Shown: positions 15,798 to 50,919, numbered from the stretch's first letter. The stretch is DNA of 64,000 nt from a virus (IMGVR_UViG_2744054962_000001), one strand, 5' to 3'. Notes: generated by a model not told the origin, from the sequence alone. Made by a program: numbers and translations.

Positions 15798-16319
15798 TTA
15801 TTCTTCGAACAATTTTTCGATAGATTTTGTAGGATAGAACAAAGAACGCTCGTTGTTACCAACCAGCTGGATAAAGCCTAAACTTTTATAAAACGCCTTG
15901 GCTTTGTCATTTAACGCCTCAACGAAAAGTCCATGAATGCCTACAGCAAGAGATGCATTGTACACAACGCGCATTGCATGTGTTACAAGCATTGAGCCAA
16001 ATCCTTGACCTTGAAGGGACTTGTCCAAAGCCAGCCTACCCAAAGTAACACTTGGAACATTCCGATAAGGAACCTTCTTTTGTTTGCTTCTTGAAGGTAA
16101 GGACTCCTTTTCAAAACAACTACCTGACAAAGTGTAATATCCTAACACTTTTGGCCTTTCTTCTTGAGTGCAAAGCACATAAGCACGAAGAATTTTTCCC
16201 TCATGCTGCCTTTTTAAGTGGTTGGCTAAAAAGGCGTTTAGTGACTCTTCGCCGCAATCAAAACCGTTTAGATCATAATCTTTCTCTCCAGAGAAAATCT
16301 CTATCGTTGTATTGCTCAC
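15798..16319 (-). CDS. GNAT-family acetyltransferase toxin (TacT/KacT-like)
   Basis: 173 aa, GNAT motif A (QGQGFGSMLV) and paired with upstream DUF1778-like RHH antitoxin. Confidence 0.7.
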   Translation of the reverse strand: MSNTTIEIFSGEKDYDLNGFDCGEESLNAFLANHLKRQHEGKILRAYVLCTQEERPKVLGYYTLSGSCFEKESLPSRSKQKKVPYRNVPSVTLGRLALDKSLQGQGFGSMLVTHAMRVVYNASLAVGIHGLFVEALNDKAKAFYKSLGFIQLVGNNERSLFYPTKSIEKLFEE

Positions 16320-17984: not shown

Positions 17985-18746
17985 GTGATAATTATGCATT
18001 CGTTAGTATTTGCATTTAAAAACATACTCAAGAATGTTATAAACATACTAGGGATGTTAAATATTTTTTTGTCTGTGAGGGTGAGGAGAAAAGATATAAA
18101 AGATAAATTAAAGGAACTTAACAAAGAAAAAGAACAATTAAAAAGCGAAGAAATTATTATTGATTTATACAAGAAAAAACTCGCATCTAGCAAGGGGAAA
18201 GCTAATGATAAAATCAAAGGAAAAATAATTCACTATATTATTGCTAGAGAGTTGGGGAATGATCCTGATAATGAAGATTTGCGACATAATCTTTTTACAA
18301 AGATAAAAGAATCAGAAGAACAGGTTGAAGTTCTGGTTCATCAAAGAGAAGTAAGTGAGCAGGCGAACAAAAAAGAAACGGTTGTCAATTTGTTTTTATT
18401 GTATGAAAAAAATAAATTGTTTAAAGCTAAGGGGTTGGCTGTGTTTCTTATAGTTATAAACTTAATTATAGTTGCGACTCTCGATCTTCCAGCTTGGTCA
18501 TTGATTATAAGTTTTTTTATTCTCTCTTTGATTATGTTGAAAGATCAGATACTTACTATTCGTGTCTCTAAAGGATATTTTGGCACAAGTGCGTATGAAG
18601 CGGTTCAATTGCTTAAATTCATCAGAGAAAATTCAGACAAATTTGACTCAGATGATAATGACGGTAGCCCACGACGGATATTGAATCCGAAGGGAACAAC
18701 AAAAAAATCAGACAACCTATTCGATAAAGGGTGGCAAAATGTTTGA
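17985..18746 (+). CDS. hypothetical membrane protein, AT-rich accessory gene
   Basis: 253 aa; N-terminal and central hydrophobic segments separated by Lys/Glu-rich coiled-coil; markedly lower GC than flanking genes. Confidence 0.4.
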   Translation: MIIMHSLVFAFKNILKNVINILGMLNIFLSVRVRRKDIKDKLKELNKEKEQLKSEEIIIDLYKKKLASSKGKANDKIKGKIIHYIIARELGNDPDNEDLRHNLFTKIKESEEQVEVLVHQREVSEQANKKETVVNLFLLYEKNKLFKAKGLAVFLIVINLIIVATLDLPAWSLIISFFILSLIMLKDQILTIRVSKGYFGTSAYEAVQLLKFIRENSDKFDSDDNDGSPRRILNPKGTTKKSDNLFDKGWQNV

Positions 18747-19161
18747 CCTTGACGCCATCACTAAGTTCTTAAATCAGTGTTTTGATCTACTTTTGCTCAA
18801 GCAGCCTTTAAGAACTGTTTTCGGAATACTGATTGGTTTCATTATTTTTGTTTTTGTTTACACGTTTAGGTTTGCGATAGCTCAAGATTTTTATGAAATA
18901 GATGGTGTGCATTACGCTGCATGTTTCGTCATCGGTGTTTTAGTTGTTCACACAAGAACATTTTTTGACGTTATCAAGGGCACCGCAGTTGATGAAGAAA
19001 TAGATAGTATGATCAGAGTTATTACGAAGCAGCCACACCTATCTAACCATCAAAAAAACATAATGATTGCTGAAATACTTCAAAAAGAAATTGCAGCCAT
19101 AAGTCAAAAGAGATTGGATAAAGTTGCACAAGAAATAACGGAGAAAAAGACAACTGATTAA
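18739..19161 (+). CDS. hypothetical membrane protein, AT-rich accessory gene
   Basis: 140 aa; two hydrophobic segments; start overlaps stop of upstream ORF (coupled). Confidence 0.4.
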   Translation: MFDLDAITKFLNQCFDLLLLKQPLRTVFGILIGFIIFVFVYTFRFAIAQDFYEIDGVHYAACFVIGVLVVHTRTFFDVIKGTAVDEEIDSMIRVITKQPHLSNHQKNIMIAEILQKEIAAISQKRLDKVAQEITEKKTTD

Positions 19162-21466: not shown

Positions 21467-21547
21467 AAAATAAGCGTGGAGAACACCTCCACGCTTGATT
21501 CATTGGTGAAACAACTTTTCTTTTGCCAAACCACAAAAGAAAAACAC

Positions 21548-22729
21548 ATGAGCCTTTATGTTATATCAACATTTAGGTTGGTCACAATATTGCCTGTTAA
21601 AAGTGGAATTATCGTGAGCGAGCTGAAAGAGCTAATTACCGAATTAGATTTTGAACAATGGTTGGATACTGAAGGTATCGTTTATCGACGTGGAGGCGTG
21701 AGTACTCGCGGTCGTGAAGTGAATATCAAGGAGTGTCCGGTATGCGGCAGCTCCAACTGGAAGGTATATTTCAATCTGACCAGTGGCGTCGGTAAATGCT
21801 TCGCTGGTGATCATCCCGAAGAGATTCAGTTCAATAAGCTGGTCTTCCTCAAGCACTACAGCGGTAAATCACGACGACAGTTCGAGGAATATGTGCAGAA
21901 CGCTCTTCTTTCCCAGGGGTGGGCACCAAAGAAAGAAGAGATAGTGCTTGCAAGCACAGTCGAGTTAGAGGGACCAGTTGCACTCCCTCGTCATTACGAT
22001 CTTCCTATAGATGGCCATCTTCCAGACTATCTGGTTGAACGAAATATATCGCCTGAAATGGCAAAGTATTTTGACCTACGATACTGCGTCGAAGGCAAGC
22101 ACGCTTATGTAGATCCGTATACAGATCAGGTTAAAGGACAGATTTTCGATATGCGAATACTGATACCGGTTTACGATCTGGATGGGGTAATGAAGACATT
22201 TCAAGGACGAGACATTACCGGTACAGCAGAACGCCGCTACCTCTTCCCTATGCAGCTGCCGGCGTCGGGTAAGTTTCTCTACAACGGCCACAACGCAGTC
22301 GGGAAACAAACAGTCGTTGTGTGTGAAGGGGCATTTGACGTAATGGGCGTGAAGCGAGCCATCTTCGACGAAAAGACGCTGAGGGATTATGTAGAGCCAA
22401 TTGGCACGTTCGGGATGCACTTGTCCGGAAATATGAATGAGGACGCTGAAGATCAGTTGGGCGCGTTCCTGACGCTCAAGGCGCGTGGATTACGCAACGT
22501 CATCATGATGTGGGATAGCGAGAAGCAAGCGATCCGCAACACCATGTCGGCGGCCAAACGCCTCACCAGCATCGGACTAAATGTCAAAGTGGCCTGTCTG
22601 GGCGAAGAAGGTCTCGACCCCGGCGACGCGACGCCAGAGCAGATCCTCAAAGCCTATTATCGTGCCAAGCCTTACTCCAAACAGCTGGAGTTAAAATGCA
22701 AAGTGCTCGGTATCAAGTCACTCGTGTAG
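21548..22729 (+). CDS. DNA primase (zinc-finger plus TOPRIM)
   Basis: CPVCGSSNW...CFAGDH zinc-binding motif, TOPRIM-like VVVCEGAFDVMG; start chosen at Met preceded by the conserved AAAGAAAAACACATG motif (track ORF starts 21476). Confidence 0.6.
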   Translation: MSLYVISTFRLVTILPVKSGIIVSELKELITELDFEQWLDTEGIVYRRGGVSTRGREVNIKECPVCGSSNWKVYFNLTSGVGKCFAGDHPEEIQFNKLVFLKHYSGKSRRQFEEYVQNALLSQGWAPKKEEIVLASTVELEGPVALPRHYDLPIDGHLPDYLVERNISPEMAKYFDLRYCVEGKHAYVDPYTDQVKGQIFDMRILIPVYDLDGVMKTFQGRDITGTAERRYLFPMQLPASGKFLYNGHNAVGKQTVVVCEGAFDVMGVKRAIFDEKTLRDYVEPIGTFGMHLSGNMNEDAEDQLGAFLTLKARGLRNVIMMWDSEKQAIRNTMSAAKRLTSIGLNVKVACLGEEGLDPGDATPEQILKAYYRAKPYSKQLELKCKVLGIKSLV

Positions 22730-22730
22730 T

Positions 22731-23828
22731 TTAAGTTGTGGGAGACAGACGGTTCAGGACAAACGCTGCGATATTATTTAGTGCTATATTTAGCAAACTT
22801 GCATCATATGTTTGGTCGTTATCCTTAGGTTTAAAATTGCTGATACTGACTGTCTCACTGTGCTCATTTTCATAGAAACGTTTACTGCTTGAATCTAGGC
22901 GTTTGAGGACGTAAATTTGCCCAAATTCAATCCACTCACCTTCACCATTGAGTCCGCTCCCTGTTTTGACTGAGATGAAGTACTTTGCCAGCTTGGTTGT
23001 AATGCAGTCTTCATTTTTTTCTATGCAAACCTTAATGCCGGCGGCTTTCAAACTACGATAAATGCTGTTTGGATATGCCCCACTATAGATTTCGCTGCTT
23101 TCAATGATAATGACGTCGTATTCTTCCTTTGGCTCAATAGATAAAGCTTCAGGCTCCAAATCATCCTTGTGAAAAATAAATCCTAAAAGACGCTCAAGTT
23201 CATCTGTTAATTTGAACATGGGGTTCGCTTGGATCTCGCCAGCCCTGTCTTCGTAGACGAGCCCCGAGGTTATGAGCTTATTTAGCGATCTCAGAGCCAT
23301 TCCACTTTTTTGTGATGTGAGGCTAACTTGGGCTAATACAGTTGATTTATAGCCTTTTATTGGCGAGCTTGTTGTGATGTAAAGTTTGCGCGCATATTCA
23401 ATATCAAAGCAGGTTAACCCACTCAGTATGTGGATAAAAAATAGTTTTTCATCGTCGTTAAGGCTGCTGCGGGCTAGGCTTACCGTCAAGCGAATGTAGT
23501 ATTCTGTTTTCTTGTCTTCATCATCAAGCACGAGCTTTTTGACTAACGCCGAAAAGTGTTCTCTTGAGATATCGACCTCATCGTCGCAAATTTCACCAAT
23601 GCCCATAATGTAACGGTTGAATCGATCACGACAAGTCGTCGCATTTATCTCTGAGAACAACGTGAACATTTTTTCCGCTGCCTCAATATGAGGTCCAACA
23701 AGCGGTATAGATTTGGCAAACGCCAAACCAGTTTCTTTCAATACCTTCCTGTGTTGCATCACGTTTTTGGACAACGTTGTCATAGACCTAAGCCTTGTGT
23801 GTTTAACGTATGAGTTAAGTGAAATCAT
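22731..23828 (-). CDS. hypothetical protein, reverse-strand AT-rich orphan
   Basis: 365 aa ORF convergent with primase gene; no recognisable catalytic motif by eye. Confidence 0.45.
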   Translation of the reverse strand: MISLNSYVKHTRLRSMTTLSKNVMQHRKVLKETGLAFAKSIPLVGPHIEAAEKMFTLFSEINATTCRDRFNRYIMGIGEICDDEVDISREHFSALVKKLVLDDEDKKTEYYIRLTVSLARSSLNDDEKLFFIHILSGLTCFDIEYARKLYITTSSPIKGYKSTVLAQVSLTSQKSGMALRSLNKLITSGLVYEDRAGEIQANPMFKLTDELERLLGFIFHKDDLEPEALSIEPKEEYDVIIIESSEIYSGAYPNSIYRSLKAAGIKVCIEKNEDCITTKLAKYFISVKTGSGLNGEGEWIEFGQIYVLKRLDSSSKRFYENEHSETVSISNFKPKDNDQTYDASLLNIALNNIAAFVLNRLSPTT

Positions 23829-23966
23829 ATAGAAGTGACCTGACAGCTACAACTGGACAAGATTAAGAGCATTTTTTATAAACGAAAATAAACGCCTACA
23901 TTGATAAGTAGATACATACTTATATTTCTGTAAGAATATGCTCGACGAAGGAATTGAGGAACCTTT

Positions 23967-24761
23967 ATGAAAGCAGATATTCAGAAGTCCGTTACCGAAA
24001 TCATCGACAAATCAGGCGTAGAAATTGATACAGAAGAGCGCCAGAAGATTATCGATGAGGCGATCCAGACTGCGCTGGAGCACATCGCCACGTCTGTGAG
24101 CACCGCACCTCTTTCGGAAGGCTCGAAATACATGCGGGTCTGGGTTCGTTTTGGGGAGTCCCCGGAGCTGCCTGGTGTTAAACAGAAACGCGCGGCACTC
24201 GTGGCGTTCACTCGCAAAATGAAGGACGCAACGGTCGAAGTACGCGCCGGTGCATGGTACGACGGTCGCGTTGTCTACACCAATCAGGCAGTGTGCGATG
24301 AAGGTGAACGGTTTGAGGAAATTGTCGACGCGACTCTTCGCGCGATCAAAGGCAGGGCTGGCGTAGAGGATGATCCTTCTATCGCGGCGTTCCTGAGCAT
24401 TGTCGAACTGCCTGAAGTTACCGAACGCGTTACAGATCTGACAACCCCACCTGGTTTGCTGGAGTTGGTGGTCAGTGGCGATACCAAAAAAGCCGTTGAG
24501 CGCATTCGTGAGGTGGAATACGGCATCATCTGCGATATGTGCCGCAGCGACTTAGACCTGGTGCGCATCATTGTCGACGCGGGTCAGACATGTGACGGTG
24601 TGCTCGCCAGTTTTGCAGGGCAGGTGGCACGCCTGGCCAACGAGCTGCCGATGATTAAACAGGAGGCAAAATCCTACGCCGTCCACCATGCCAACGATTT
24701 ACTGGAACCATACCGGTTCGAAGCCGCTCAGGACAAAATGACTGGCTGGGCTACCTGGTAA
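23967..24761 (+). CDS. hypothetical protein
   Basis: 264 aa acidic protein, good codon usage, followed by terminator. Confidence 0.4.
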   Translation: MKADIQKSVTEIIDKSGVEIDTEERQKIIDEAIQTALEHIATSVSTAPLSEGSKYMRVWVRFGESPELPGVKQKRAALVAFTRKMKDATVEVRAGAWYDGRVVYTNQAVCDEGERFEEIVDATLRAIKGRAGVEDDPSIAAFLSIVELPEVTERVTDLTTPPGLLELVVSGDTKKAVERIREVEYGIICDMCRSDLDLVRIIVDAGQTCDGVLASFAGQVARLANELPMIKQEAKSYAVHHANDLLEPYRFEAAQDKMTGWATW

Positions 24762-29499: not shown

Positions 29500-30054
29500 T
29501 CAATCTTCCCTTTGTTTTGGGTAGTGTTGTGTTCGTATCGCATAGGAAGCTCCGTCATTTAAATAAGTTAGGCCACGCTCTTGTGTAAATCTCTTCACAT
29601 ATCTCTTGTATGTGGCCATCAGTTCTTCGCGTTCTGCCGCAAAGAATAAAATCTGTATGCCTTCATTGTCGGCAACTTTGAGCATTAAGTCAACTAAAGT
29701 ACCGTAAAGGTATTGAAGTTCACCTAAAGTAAGATTAAAAGACCCTTCGGGTTTGGCAAATACGTTAATTGGCTCTTCCGCTCCAAGAGCAGCATTCTGG
29801 AGCTGTTCTTGCTGCCTGTCAAGTTGAATCATGTCCACAAAACTAACGACAGATACACACAACCCATAAACATCAGCACCTAACATATTATGCATAGTTT
29901 CTGCGGCAACAGGATCTAAAGAAGGAGGGCAAAAGACTAAACGGTATCTAGCCTTACGAGCTTCATTGCCAGAGAAAACAAAGTCTATATCTAAATATGA
30001 CAGATCACCCGGCAATGAAGCCAAACCAGGTGTAACCAACTTATGCAAGTGCAT
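29500..30054 (-). CDS. hypothetical protein (reverse-strand orphan upstream of recombinase)
   Basis: 184 aa, no recognisable motif. Confidence 0.3.
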   Translation of the reverse strand: MHLHKLVTPGLASLPGDLSYLDIDFVFSGNEARKARYRLVFCPPSLDPVAAETMHNMLGADVYGLCVSVVSFVDMIQLDRQQEQLQNAALGAEEPINVFAKPEGSFNLTLGELQYLYGTLVDLMLKVADNEGIQILFFAAEREELMATYKRYVKRFTQERGLTYLNDGASYAIRTQHYPKQRED

Positions 30055-49863: not shown

Positions 49864-50919
49864 CTATTTGCGAGTCTTTGCCTTGCGCAACTCTTCGAGA
49901 AGCGCCAGTTCTTCTTTACTCAACATGACCATTTTGCCTTCTTTTTCGTCAGGCACAACGTCGATAATGTCATCTTGATTCTCATCTGGGAGGCTATATT
50001 CCGTCTCATCATTATCGATTTTTGTTGATATTTGTGCCTGGCGTAACTTTGGCCGCCTATAGTGGATGATGAAGTAGACCGAGTTTCCGCGCTTAACTTC
50101 CGTGTAATCGAGATATCCTATCTCTCGCAGCTGTTCCATAGCCTTTCTTACCGTCGCATTCTGAGTAATAGTGCGACTTGTCAGATTAAGTCTGGCGCGT
50201 AAACGAGCTAGTGATATTGGTGCCGGATCAGGCGGCAAACTTTCAATAAAAGTATAAAGCGCCTGAGCGGATTCTTTTCTTGAGAGTTCGTTTATAGCCC
50301 GGAGTTGCAGAAGAACCTTTTTGTCGAACTGGTAGAGTTCGAAAATCTTGGGATCTGCTTTCAGTTCGACCGTATCGTGCTTGACACTATATTTTGCCGT
50401 TTGCACAAGATGCGTTACGTAAAACTCATCAGAGCCTTTGCTACGGAACGAGATGGTATTTGTGGCAATACGGCTTAGCGAACTGTCCAGGCGTTTGCGT
50501 AACTTCGCTGATGACCTGGCGGTCGGAATGCCACACAGCCTTACAAACTCAACGAACGGCAACGTGACAGTATCGCCAACGACCTTGTGTTTGGCAAACG
50601 CGTGGATTATTCCCACCCACGTTTTAAAGTCGTTATCCATATCAAGCCGAAGGCCAGAGATCCTTATGTCTTCGTACCCTTCGGCTTTTGCCAGAGACAG
50701 CTGTTTGAGTTCAGCAGAGGCATCCATAGAGACCATTTGCCCCTTTCTTCCTCTGGATGTCGATTTCAGCGTCGGAACGAAGAGGCCCAGACGCATCAAA
50801 GCAACAGGCTGAACAGTGTTATTAGTGTTAGGAACCAACGTAACAACTTCGCCTGTCTTTTTATCTGTTTCTGAAAATGCTTCAACGATCGCTATGTTTT
50901 TATTGCCGTTTTCGCTCAT
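49864..50919 (-). CDS. repA: plasmid-type replication initiator RepA
   Basis: 351 aa; gene flanked on both sides by iteron arrays and upstream DnaA box, the classic iteron-replicon layout; protein identity not searched. Confidence 0.55.

What the first reader, a model, noticed from the sequence alone, without database searches (positions are those of the whole stretch)
22731..23828. Reverse-strand AT-rich orphan gene wedged between primase and downstream replication genes
A 365-aa ORF on the minus strand is convergent with the primase gene, with stop codons 1 nt apart, and divergent from the next + strand gene. It has its own upstream region containing an ATAAGTAGATACATACTTAT palindrome. It is the only sizeable minus-strand gene in a long + strand replication block and looks lower in GC than its neighbours. 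That is the typical signature of a moron, often an anti-phage or abortive-infection gene. I could not assign a family from the sequence.
Basis: partly seen in the sequence, partly recalled or inferred. Interest (0 to 1): 0.65.

Follow-up and report, generated by a model that had tools for sequence, protein, structure and literature searches.

The report
AbiAlpha-like cargo gene in phage-plasmid
A self-contained, optional gene with its own promoter sits backwards between the replication genes of a pHCM2/SSU5-type phage-plasmid; it is a distant, rearranged relative of the AbiAlpha phage-defence protein, and current defence-finding tools miss it.

Summary
A minus-strand ORF (22731-23828) ends 1 nt from the primase stop, diverges from the next + gene, and has lower GC (41.5% vs 48-55%). 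Two corrections apply. The real start is M16 (350 aa, 22731-23783). The palindrome is not the gene's own: it is a backbone operator kept when the slot is empty, with 10 copies in the window.

The window is a pHCM2/SSU5-type phage-plasmid. The slot between primase and the next gene is a cargo hotspot. It is empty in Cyrano and PhiR41_1, holds this family in pHCM2 and SSU5, a TPR gene in pG6809-1, and an unrelated gene in pJN2-26.

The cassette has its own conserved sigma-70 promoter and also occurs outside this slot. The protein (phrog_22938, about 130 clusters) has a conserved helical plus winged-helix core and a fast-diverging, recombining C-terminal alpha/beta domain. The core is distantly but reproducibly related to Abi_alpha (PF14337), below Pfam's threshold. 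Bona fide AbiAlpha genes occupy the same backwards position beside phage replication genes.

Best reading: a divergent AbiAlpha-like defence moron. The function is inferred, not shown. It is not a replication protein.

The parts
22731..23783 (-). Coding sequence of the cargo protein: 350 aa from M16 of the listed ORF, with the stop codon at 22731-22733. It belongs to phrog_22938.
   Evidence: ORF list. The homologue alignment starts at MTTLSK. RefSeq annotates 350 aa in pHCM2. phrog_22938 matches at E=6.6e-218.
23784..23828 (-). The first 15 codons of the 365-aa ORF. They are probably untranslated 5' leader, and the first ATG overlaps the -10 box.
   Evidence: Alignment of four diverged carriers. 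Homologue N-termini.
23793..23796 (-). Shine-Dalgarno sequence AAGG, 9 nt before the M16 ATG.
   Evidence: Read from the sequence. Invariant in four carriers.
23824..23829 (-). -10 hexamer TATGAT of the cargo gene's own promoter.
   Evidence: The invariant block ATATGATTTC is present in window, SSU5, Lelliottia and Cedecea copies. Function is inferred.
23847..23852 (-). -35 hexamer TTGTAG, 17 nt upstream of the -10.
   Evidence: The invariant block GTTGTAGC (TTGTCG in SSU5) is present in four carriers. Function is inferred.
22730..23900 (.). The inserted cargo segment (about 1.17 kb). It is absent from empty-slot relatives, where only about 14 nt separate the primase stop from the palindrome.
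   Evidence: Comparison of slot boundaries in six elements. Both flanks align with a 1244-bp total span in empty-slot plasmids.
23412..23783 (-). N-terminal helical region (residues 1-124). It includes the most conserved block of the family.
   Evidence: AlphaFold2 model with pLDDT 89. Entropy profile and 92% identity to the SSU5 type over residues 46-140.
23496..23525 (-). Acidic loop and helix start, DDEDKKTEYY (residues 87-96). It carries the family's invariant K92 and Y96 and the near-invariant D87 and E89.
   Evidence: 62-sequence alignment.
23208..23411 (-). Winged helix-turn-helix of MarR type (residues 125-192). This part aligns to Abi_alpha.
22734..23141 (-). Variable C-terminal alpha/beta domain (residues 215-350). 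Its fold resembles the anticodon-binding domain, the CadC sensor subdomain and HpaA.
23904..23923 (.). Backbone palindrome ATAAGTA-N6-TACTTAT. It is an operator-like site of the downstream + strand operon and is not part of the cargo.
   Evidence: Kept at a fixed distance before the downstream ATG in empty and otherwise occupied slots. There are 10 matches in the window against 0.12 expected.
23925..23938 (+). Conserved TTTCTGTAAGAATA, which contains an extended -10-like TGTAAGAAT. It is the likely promoter of the downstream + strand gene at 23967.
   Evidence: Conserved in all slot states. The promoter role is inferred.

Best explanation
The gene is a moron: an optional cassette made of its own promoter plus a single gene. 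It is inserted between the primase stop codon and the operator/promoter of the next replication-region operon of a pHCM2/SSU5-type phage-plasmid.

The protein has two parts:
- A conserved N-terminal helical plus winged-helix core that is a distant homologue of Abi_alpha (DUF4393), the single-protein abortive-infection family founded by Enterococcus Abi-alpha.
- A rapidly diverging, recombinationally swappable C-terminal alpha/beta domain.

Proposed mechanism:
- Shown or strongly supported: optional presence, own conserved promoter, mobility between contexts, three-part architecture, mosaic evolution, and a distant Abi_alpha relationship.
- Inferred: the protein is made constitutively from its sigma-70 promoter while the element is carried as a plasmid prophage. 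The variable C-terminal domain recognises a component of a superinfecting phage. The conserved core then aborts or excludes that infection, as Abi-alpha does by provoking premature lysis. This protects the lysogen population and the phage-plasmid.

The biochemical activity of the core is unknown, as it is for Abi-alpha itself.
For: - Hotspot and optional presence.
- Own promoter, Shine-Dalgarno and start conserved across carriers whose proteins are 54-58% identical.
- The cassette also occurs in a Lelliottia chromosome, next to a DNA-methylase/ATPase cluster, and on a Cedecea Rep_3 plasmid.
- Other family members are lone cargo in a phage late region, a prophage, an integrase island with ArdC/CcdA, and next to AbiU-like and NACHT genes on a Klebsiella plasmid.
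- Abi_alpha link:
  - 10 of 62 members hit PF14337, best E=8.1e-6.
  - The family consensus aligns to model positions 5-167 of 196 at E=2.3e-4.
  - hhalign against 10 bona fide Abi_alpha proteins gives probability 64% and P=6.6e-5 over 87 columns.
  - An independent Abi_alpha HMM ranks family members as its top 7 and 23 of its top 30 among 901 sequences.
  - One member hits PADLOC PDC-S47, which is the Abi_alpha model.
- Bona fide Abi_alpha genes sit in the same way: a lone opposite-strand gene beside replication genes in phiNM1, StauST398-5 and IPP23.
- Mosaic conservation and a recombinant allele.
- Abi-alpha is an experimentally shown Abi protein (PMC6356687).
- AbiAlpha is the second most common defence system carried by sequenced phages (bioRxiv 10.64898/2026.05.06.722914).
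Against: - The window protein itself has no Pfam, PADLOC or NCBIfam hit.
- All Abi_alpha matches are below Pfam's 29-bit gathering threshold.
- The tighter alignment A2 gives no hhalign signal (probability 1%).
- The shared region is largely a winged helix, a very common fold.
- The Abi_alpha N-terminal W..G motif and C-terminal KG..T..G...C motif are not matched.
- No recognisable toxic or enzymatic effector domain is present.
- Several contexts are plasmid-maintenance regions rather than defence islands.
- No phenotype data exist.
Confidence: 0.5

Rival explanations
1. The protein is a one-component transcriptional regulator. The MarR-type winged helix binds DNA and the C-terminal alpha/beta domain senses a ligand. 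It would modulate host or phage-plasmid gene expression, for example lysogeny maintenance or host takeover, rather than killing or excluding phages.
For: - The family profile matches MarR/SlyA regulators (E=7.5e-5).
- The C-terminal domain resembles sensor or ligand-binding-type alpha/beta folds such as the CadC periplasmic subdomain.
- No effector domain is recognisable.
Against: - The gene is solitary cargo in many unrelated contexts, with no conserved neighbouring target or partner.
- It is dispensable in close relatives.
- No Pfam MarR or HTH family is hit.
- The most conserved part is the helical bundle with its acidic loop, not the recognition helix.
- The extreme divergence and swapping of the C-terminal domain is unusual for a metabolite sensor.
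Confidence: 0.2
2. The protein is a plasmid or phage-plasmid maintenance accessory factor, acting in partition, stability or replication control through its DNA-binding winged helix. It would be comparable in role to TubR, KfrA-associated proteins or kleisin-like adaptors.
For: - It lies within the replication gene block here.
- In a Klebsiella plasmid it overlaps the stop of a KfrA_N gene by 4 nt.
- In IncFII and Rep_3 plasmids it lies between toxin-antitoxin or ParAB genes and other maintenance genes.
Against: - There is no homology to KfrB or KfrC (hhalign probability 0.1% or less).
- The real initiator is the Rep_3 gene at 49864-50919.
- There are no iterons or repeats nearby.
- The slot is empty in functional phage-plasmids that are 95% identical in the flanks.
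- The family also occurs in non-plasmid phages and in chromosomes.
Confidence: 0.12
3. The protein is an anti-defence or host-takeover factor that helps the phage-plasmid establish itself in new hosts.
For: - One homologue lies next to ArdC and CcdA.
- Another lies on a plasmid with anti-restriction and leading-region genes a few kb away.
- Accessory hotspots often mix defence and counter-defence genes (established knowledge).
Against: - It matches no known anti-defence family.
- A size of 350 aa with a winged helix is atypical for such factors.
- The constitutive-looking sigma-70 promoter and the opposite orientation to the early operons fit lysogenic expression rather than early-infection expression (inference).
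- The Abi_alpha relationship points the other way.
Confidence: 0.08

Closest known systems
Abi-alpha / Pfam Abi_alpha (PF14337, DUF4393; DefenseFinder AbiAlpha; PADLOC PDC-S47). Examples: Enterococcus faecalis V583 prophage-6 EF2833 and Staphylococcus phage phiNM1 / 80alpha gp17.
   Same: - Both are single-gene, prophage-borne cargo.
- Both are placed as a lone opposite-strand gene beside replication genes.
- The helical plus winged-helix core is collinear, with three shared motif blocks.
- Sub-threshold sequence similarity is reproducible.
- In both, the biochemical mechanism is unknown (for Abi-alpha).
   Different: - The matches are below Pfam's gathering score, and the window protein is not detected at all.
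- It is longer (350 aa against about 270-300 aa).
- It lacks the Abi_alpha N-terminal W..VFG motif and C-terminal KG.I.LT.FG...C motif.
- It carries instead a distinct, variable alpha/beta C-terminal domain.
- It is found in Enterobacterales, whereas the classical members sampled here were mostly from Gram-positive hosts.
- No phenotype has been shown.
Phage morons in lysogeny or early regions (generic class, for example lambda rexAB or P2 old/tin-type cargo).
   Same: - Optional presence.
- Own promoter.
- Lower GC than the flanks.
- Opposite orientation.
- Occupies a hotspot that carries alternative cargo in relatives.
   Different: - No terminator is detectable. The gene abuts the primase stop, so its transcript must run antisense into primase.
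- It has no sequence relationship to those proteins.
MarR-family winged-helix regulators.
   Same: The fold of residues ~125-192 matches, and there is profile-level similarity to SlyA-like proteins.
   Different: - No Pfam MarR match.
- More than twice the size.
- The winged helix is embedded between a large helical bundle and an extra alpha/beta domain.
- No adjacent target genes.

Membership tests
Abi_alpha (PF14337 / DUF4393) | Pfam model match at or above the gathering score (29 bits). | tested here: not met
   The window protein has no hit at E<=0.1. The family consensus scores 21.7 bits. Ten of 62 members hit, all below 29 bits in the members listed. The positive control phiNM1 gp17 scores 153.6 bits.
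Abi_alpha (PF14337 / DUF4393) | Profile-profile homology to bona fide members over the domain core. | tested here: inconclusive
   hhalign of A3 against A4 gives probability 64%, P=6.6e-5, 87 columns, but A2 against A4 gives only 1%. An independent HMM ranks family members in the top 7 and 23 of the top 30 among 901 sequences.
Abi_alpha (PF14337 / DUF4393) | Conserved N-terminal W..(V)FG motif and C-terminal KG.I.LT.FG...C motif seen in bona fide members. | tested here: not met
   The motifs are invariant in A4. The hhalign alignment covers only the central region. The target's C-terminus is a separate alpha/beta domain.
Abi_alpha (PF14337 / DUF4393) | Single-gene cargo of temperate phages, typically a lone opposite-strand gene in the early/replication region. 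| tested here: met
   The target, compared with phiNM1 gp17, StauST398-5, IPP23, StB20-like, Javan149 and Jekyll.
Abi_alpha (PF14337 / DUF4393) | Abortive-infection phenotype: reduced efficiency of centre of infection, premature lysis, death of infected cells. | not testable with these tools
   Shown only for EF2833 in the literature (PMC6356687).
Moron (autonomous cargo cassette in a phage genome) | Presence or absence polymorphism among otherwise syntenic relatives. | tested here: met
   The slot is empty in Cyrano and PhiR41_1 (75 bp) and in many plasmids. Other cargo is present in pJN2-26 and pG6809-1.
Moron (autonomous cargo cassette in a phage genome) | Own promoter. | tested here: met
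   -35 TTGTAG, a 17-nt spacer, -10 TATGAT and the Shine-Dalgarno sequence are conserved in four diverged carriers, two of them outside the primase slot. Activity has not been measured.
Moron (autonomous cargo cassette in a phage genome) | Own terminator. | tested here: not met
   There is 1 nt between the convergent stops, and no terminator-like site lies downstream on the minus strand.
Moron (autonomous cargo cassette in a phage genome) | Composition differing from the flanks. | tested here: met
   GC is 0.415 against 0.484 and 0.547. GC3 is 0.44 against 0.53 and 0.60.
Plasmid replication initiator (Rep_3 / IncFIB RepA type) | Rep_3 WH1/WH2 domains with nearby iterons. | tested here: not met
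   No Rep Pfam hit and no direct-repeat family near the gene. The true Rep3_N plus Rep3_C gene is at 49864-50919(-).
KfrB / KfrC plasmid survival proteins | Sequence homology to R751 KfrB or KfrC. | tested here: not met
   hhalign probability is 0.1% or less for both.
MarR-family regulators | Winged-helix fold together with a Pfam MarR-type match and a dimeric protein of about 150 aa. | tested here: inconclusive
   The fold and profile similarity are met. The Pfam match and the size are not.

The most novel reading that the evidence does not exclude
phrog_22938 would be a previously unrecognised, modular branch of the AbiAlpha superfamily in Enterobacterales. In it, a conserved AbiAlpha-like core is fused to an interchangeable C-terminal domain with an anticodon-binding-domain-like fold, which sets which invading phage (or which phage RNA or protein) is sensed. 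That would give the first candidate defence gene of the 'cryptic' S. Typhi plasmid pHCM2. It would also give a genetically tractable E. coli/Salmonella model for working out the still unknown AbiAlpha mechanism.
Probability: 0.3. Interest if true: 0.65.

Novelty: new variant of a known kind. Interest (0 to 1): 0.45.

Why it matters
- pHCM2-like phage-plasmids are common in S. Typhi and related pathogens, and a recent survey reports them as carrying no detectable defence systems. A hidden AbiAlpha-like gene would give these 'cryptic' elements a selectable function, namely protection of the lysogen. It could also affect the choice of phages for therapy.
- AbiAlpha is one of the most frequent defence systems carried by phages, yet its mechanism is unknown. 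A Gram-negative relative with a clearly separable conserved core and swappable C-terminal domain offers natural chimeras for mapping sensing against effector functions.
- The work also defines a cargo hotspot in SSU5-type elements, between the primase stop and the operator, which is useful for mining further accessory genes.

Tried and rejected
- Replication initiator or origin: rejected. There is no Rep domain and no iterons, and the real Rep_3 gene is elsewhere.
- KfrB/KfrC-like maintenance protein, prompted by a KfrA_N gene upstream of the Klebsiella homologue: no homology.
- Conserved partner gene: the small upstream genes in three loci are unrelated to one another.
- pJN2-26 slot gene as a distant homologue: not related.
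- phiNM1 gp03 as an Abi_alpha reference: no Pfam hit, a dead end. gp17 is the real one.
- PD-(D/E)xK or HEPN reading of the DDEDKK loop: rejected by inspection. The region is helix-loop-helix without the required strands or an Rx4-6H motif.
- The search for related loci with the broad alignment failed, and the tight alignment returned only two loci.
- The third large-database search was limited by its candidate cap and added little.
- PADLOC on all members gave only scattered weak hits.

Full report
**1. Observation**

The ORF list shows a 365-aa ORF at 22731..23828 on the minus strand. The primase ORF (21476..22729) matches DNAG_N and Toprim_2 weakly in Pfam, just below their cut-offs, and phrog_47 'DNA primase' strongly. 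It ends at 22729, and the minus-strand stop codon occupies 22731-22733, so one nucleotide separates the convergent stops. The next + strand gene (phrog_4248, unknown function) starts at 23967. The sequence ATAAGTAGATACATACTTAT is at 23904-23923.

The gene's GC content is 0.415. Primase is 0.484, the downstream gene is 0.547, and the window mean is 0.459. The gene falls at the 6th percentile of same-size windows. Between about 16.4 and 29.5 kb it is the only sizeable real minus-strand gene. The factual core of the finding is therefore confirmed.

**2. Two corrections**

*The start codon.* All close homologues begin at MTTLSK, which is M16 of the ORF, and RefSeq annotates 350 aa in pHCM2. I aligned the upstream regions of four carriers whose proteins are only 54-58% identical. 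Three blocks are invariant:
- GTTGTAGC (-35 TTGTAG, 23852-23847);
- after a 17-nt spacer, ATATGATTTC (-10 TATGAT, 23829-23824);
- AAGGC..CTATG (Shine-Dalgarno AAGG at 23796-23793, ATG at 23783).

The first ATG of the 365-aa ORF lies inside the -10 box. The gene is therefore 22731-23783 (350 aa), and it has its own conserved sigma-70-type promoter. The simple consensus scan did not flag this promoter; the evidence for it is the phylogenetic footprint.

*The palindrome.* In Cyrano and PhiR41_1 the slot is empty: 75 bp lie between the primase stop and the next ATG. The palindrome and the following TTTCTGTAAGAATA are still there, about 63 bp before the downstream ATG. The same holds for SSU5 and for pG6809-1, which carries different cargo. 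With up to 2 mismatches the motif occurs 10 times in the window, against 0.12 expected. Several copies lie 20-65 bp upstream of + strand gene starts. It is a backbone operator/promoter element, not a feature of the cargo.

**3. What the element is**

The 8-kb surroundings match Salmonella phage SSU5 (84.5% identity) and Escherichia phages Cyrano, CMS-2020a and PhiR41_1 (about 95% identity), except at this slot. The protein is 99.7% identical to a hypothetical protein of S. Typhi CT18 plasmid pHCM2 and 100% identical to proteins on E. coli plasmids. The window is thus a pHCM2/SSU5-type phage-plasmid.

Its plasmid initiator is the Rep_3 gene at 49864-50919(-), which fits the IncFIB typing of pHCM2.

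**4. The slot is a cargo hotspot**

| Element | Slot content |
|---|---|
| Cyrano, PhiR41_1 | empty |
| SSU5 | family member, 57% identical |
| Klebsiella pJN2-26 | unrelated 388-aa minus-strand gene |
| E. cloacae pG6809-1 | 417-aa minus-strand TPR protein |

Of 797 plasmid records that share at least one flank, only 55 align across the whole 2.4 kb. Many align to both flanks with a total span of 1244 bp, which means an empty slot. The gene is present in 10 of 5426 complete E. coli genomes, always on plasmids. Truncated or frameshifted alleles exist. This rules out a core replication role.

**5. The cassette is mobile**

Copies with the same promoter lie outside the primase slot:
- in a Lelliottia chromosome, next to a DNA-methylase / HATPase_c_3-HEF_HK / Response_reg_2 cluster;
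- on a Cedecea Rep_3 plasmid, between parB and umuDC.

More distant members lie in these contexts:
- the only opposite-strand gene in a phage late region;
- a Providencia prophage near a Bro-N gene;
- an integrase island with ArdC and CcdA;
- an IncFII plasmid between RelB/ParE and ParM;
- a Klebsiella NDM-1 plasmid, downstream of a KfrA_N gene and upstream of an AbiU-like AIPR gene and a NACHT gene.

No partner gene is conserved.

**6. The protein family**

There is no Pfam, NCBIfam or PADLOC hit for the window protein. It matches phrog_22938, of unknown function. The word-indexed search found only 29 clusters, all named ones from Enterobacterales. The exhaustive HMM search found 132 representatives at 50% identity, mostly 340-390 aa. 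K92 and Y96 are invariant, and D87, E89, L123, L170 and G174 are nearly so.

**7. Structure**

- The whole protein models at pLDDT 77.
- The N-terminal 200 residues, modelled with the deeper alignment, reach pLDDT 89.
- Architecture: a long helical hairpin; a helical bundle with the acidic loop DDEDKK; a winged helix (residues ~125-192); a linker; and an alpha/beta domain (215-350).
- The family profile matches SlyA/MarR sequences at E=7.5e-5.
- No catalytic or toxin-like fold is evident.

**8. Mosaic evolution**

Compared with the SSU5-type protein, residues 46-140 are 92% identical, residues 141-200 are 57% identical, and residues 201-350 are 32% identical. Allele P0006 is 100% identical to the window protein through about residue 125, and then carries a different C-terminal type. 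A conserved core joined to a swappable, fast-evolving C-terminal domain is what one expects of a specificity or sensor module. This is an inference.

**9. Link to Abi_alpha**

- Ten of 62 diverse members individually hit Pfam Abi_alpha (PF14337), best E=8.1e-6. The hits fall on the conserved core.
- The family consensus aligns to model positions 5-167 of 196 at E=2.3e-4 and 21.7 bits, below the 29-bit gathering score.
- I built an independent reference from bona fide Abi_alpha proteins of ten phages. It is anchored on phiNM1 gp17, which scores 153.6 bits against PF14337.
- hhalign of the family against this reference gives probability 64% and P=6.6e-5 over 87 columns, with three collinear motif blocks that end in the winged-helix recognition region. 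The shallower alignment A2 gives no signal.
- An HMM built from the ten reference proteins ranks family members as its top 7 hits and 23 of its top 30 in a database of 159 family and 742 decoy sequences.
- PADLOC's equivalent of Abi_alpha is PDC-S47, which one family member also hit weakly.

I conclude that the core is probably (about 0.7-0.8) a distant homologue of Abi_alpha. The family fails formal membership. It is below the gathering threshold, it lacks the N- and C-terminal Abi_alpha motifs, and it carries a different C-terminal domain.

**10. Genomic habit matches**

In phiNM1 and 80alpha-type phages, StauST398-5 and IPP23, the Abi_alpha gene is a lone opposite-strand gene directly beside the replication-initiator gene. 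It is likewise a lone opposite-strand gene in StB20-like, Javan149 and Jekyll. This is the same layout as the finding.

From the literature:
- Abi-alpha (EF2833) of E. faecalis prophage 6 causes abortive infection with premature lysis, by an unknown mechanism (PMC6356687).
- The phiNM1 DUF4393 protein is the most abundant prophage protein in lysogens (bioRxiv 10.1101/2025.10.23.684294).
- AbiAlpha is the second most common defence system in sequenced phages (bioRxiv 10.64898/2026.05.06.722914).
- A 2025 survey found no defence systems in pHCM2-like phage-plasmids (bioRxiv 10.1101/2025.09.12.675607).

**11. Mechanism: best reading**

*Shown:*
- optional cassette in a hotspot;
- own conserved promoter;
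- occurrence in unrelated contexts;
- three-part architecture;
- mosaic evolution;
- a sub-threshold but reproducible Abi_alpha relationship.

*Inferred:*
- expression in the plasmid-prophage state;
- the C-terminal domain senses a component of a superinfecting phage;
- the conserved core triggers abortive infection or exclusion.

Because no terminator fits between the convergent stops, the cargo transcript must run antisense into the 3' end of primase. Whether this matters is unknown.

**12. Rivals**

- One-component regulator (0.2).
- Maintenance accessory factor (0.12).
- Anti-defence factor (0.08).

None is excluded without experiments. Replication initiator and KfrB/KfrC homology are rejected.

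**13. Verdict**

I classify the gene as a new variant of a known kind: an AbiAlpha-like single-gene defence candidate with a distinct variable C-terminal domain, invisible to current annotation. Interest is moderate. It is not a new principle, but it provides:
- a candidate function for a 'cryptic' pathogen plasmid;
- a defined cargo hotspot;
- a tractable model for an unexplained, widespread defence family.

Noticed in passing
window 14265, 19183, 19190, 19310, 23904, 27486, 46678, 48631, 53451, 62848: The palindromic motif ATAAGTA-N6-TACTTAT occurs 10 times (up to 2 mismatches), against 0.12 expected by chance. Several copies lie 20-65 bp upstream of + strand gene starts (19333, 23967, 53488, 62883), often followed by TTTCTGTAAGAATA. 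It looks like the operator/promoter signature of a backbone regulon of SSU5-type phage-plasmids. The regulator is unidentified.
   Followed up: partly
window 17985-19161 (+): Two overlapping ORFs (253 and 140 aa) have very low GC (0.31-0.35) and no Pfam hit. They lie between the partition genes and the phrog_2500 gene. The same position holds different genes in pHCM2 (a DUF2971 gene plus an opposite-strand 351-aa gene), PhiR41_1 (a minus-strand 255-aa gene) and SSU5. It is probably a second cargo hotspot.
   Followed up: partly
window 49864-50919 (-): A Rep_3-family replication initiator (Rep3_N plus Rep3_C). This is the plasmid's IncFIB-type rep gene, far from the helicase/primase/ligase block.
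   Followed up: partly
window 15798-16319 (-) and 29500-30054 (-): Two further opposite-strand, lower-GC genes: a GNAT acetyltransferase (GC 0.40) and a 184-aa protein with no family hit (GC 0.42). They may be additional morons.
   Followed up: no
L021 829-1686 (phiNM1 gp17); L023; L028; L022; L029; L030: Bona fide Abi_alpha (DUF4393) genes of Gram-positive temperate phages are consistently lone opposite-strand genes among early genes. In phiNM1, StauST398-5 and IPP23 they lie directly next to the replication protein gene. I did not find this positional habit described in the papers I read.
   Followed up: partly
L006 6297-10425 (K. pneumoniae NDM-1 plasmid p1, NZ_CP009116): A family member (40% identical) overlaps the end of a KfrA_N DNA-binding gene by 4 nt. 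It is followed by an AbiU-like AIPR gene and a NACHT gene, forming a small defence island on an IncFIA/IncR resistance plasmid.
   Followed up: partly
P0006, P0015; plasmids NZ_CP114804 and LT904853: Natural variants of the gene: a recombinant with the window-type N-terminus and a different C-terminal domain (P0006); truncated alleles of 191 and about 231 aa; and one S. enterica copy split into two pieces. These indicate domain shuffling and occasional decay.
   Followed up: partly
L032 9284-15090 (Lelliottia sp. WAP21 chromosome): Next to the Lelliottia copy lies a three-gene cluster: Response_reg_2 (PF19192), HATPase_c_3 / HEF_HK (PF13589, PF19191) and a C5 DNA methylase (PF00145). It looks like a restriction-modification-like defence module. 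It was not analysed.
   Followed up: no
window 21476-22729 (+): The mechanical primase ORF (417 aa from GTG 21476) is longer than the 371-aa primases annotated in SSU5, Cyrano and pHCM2. The true start is probably downstream.
   Followed up: no
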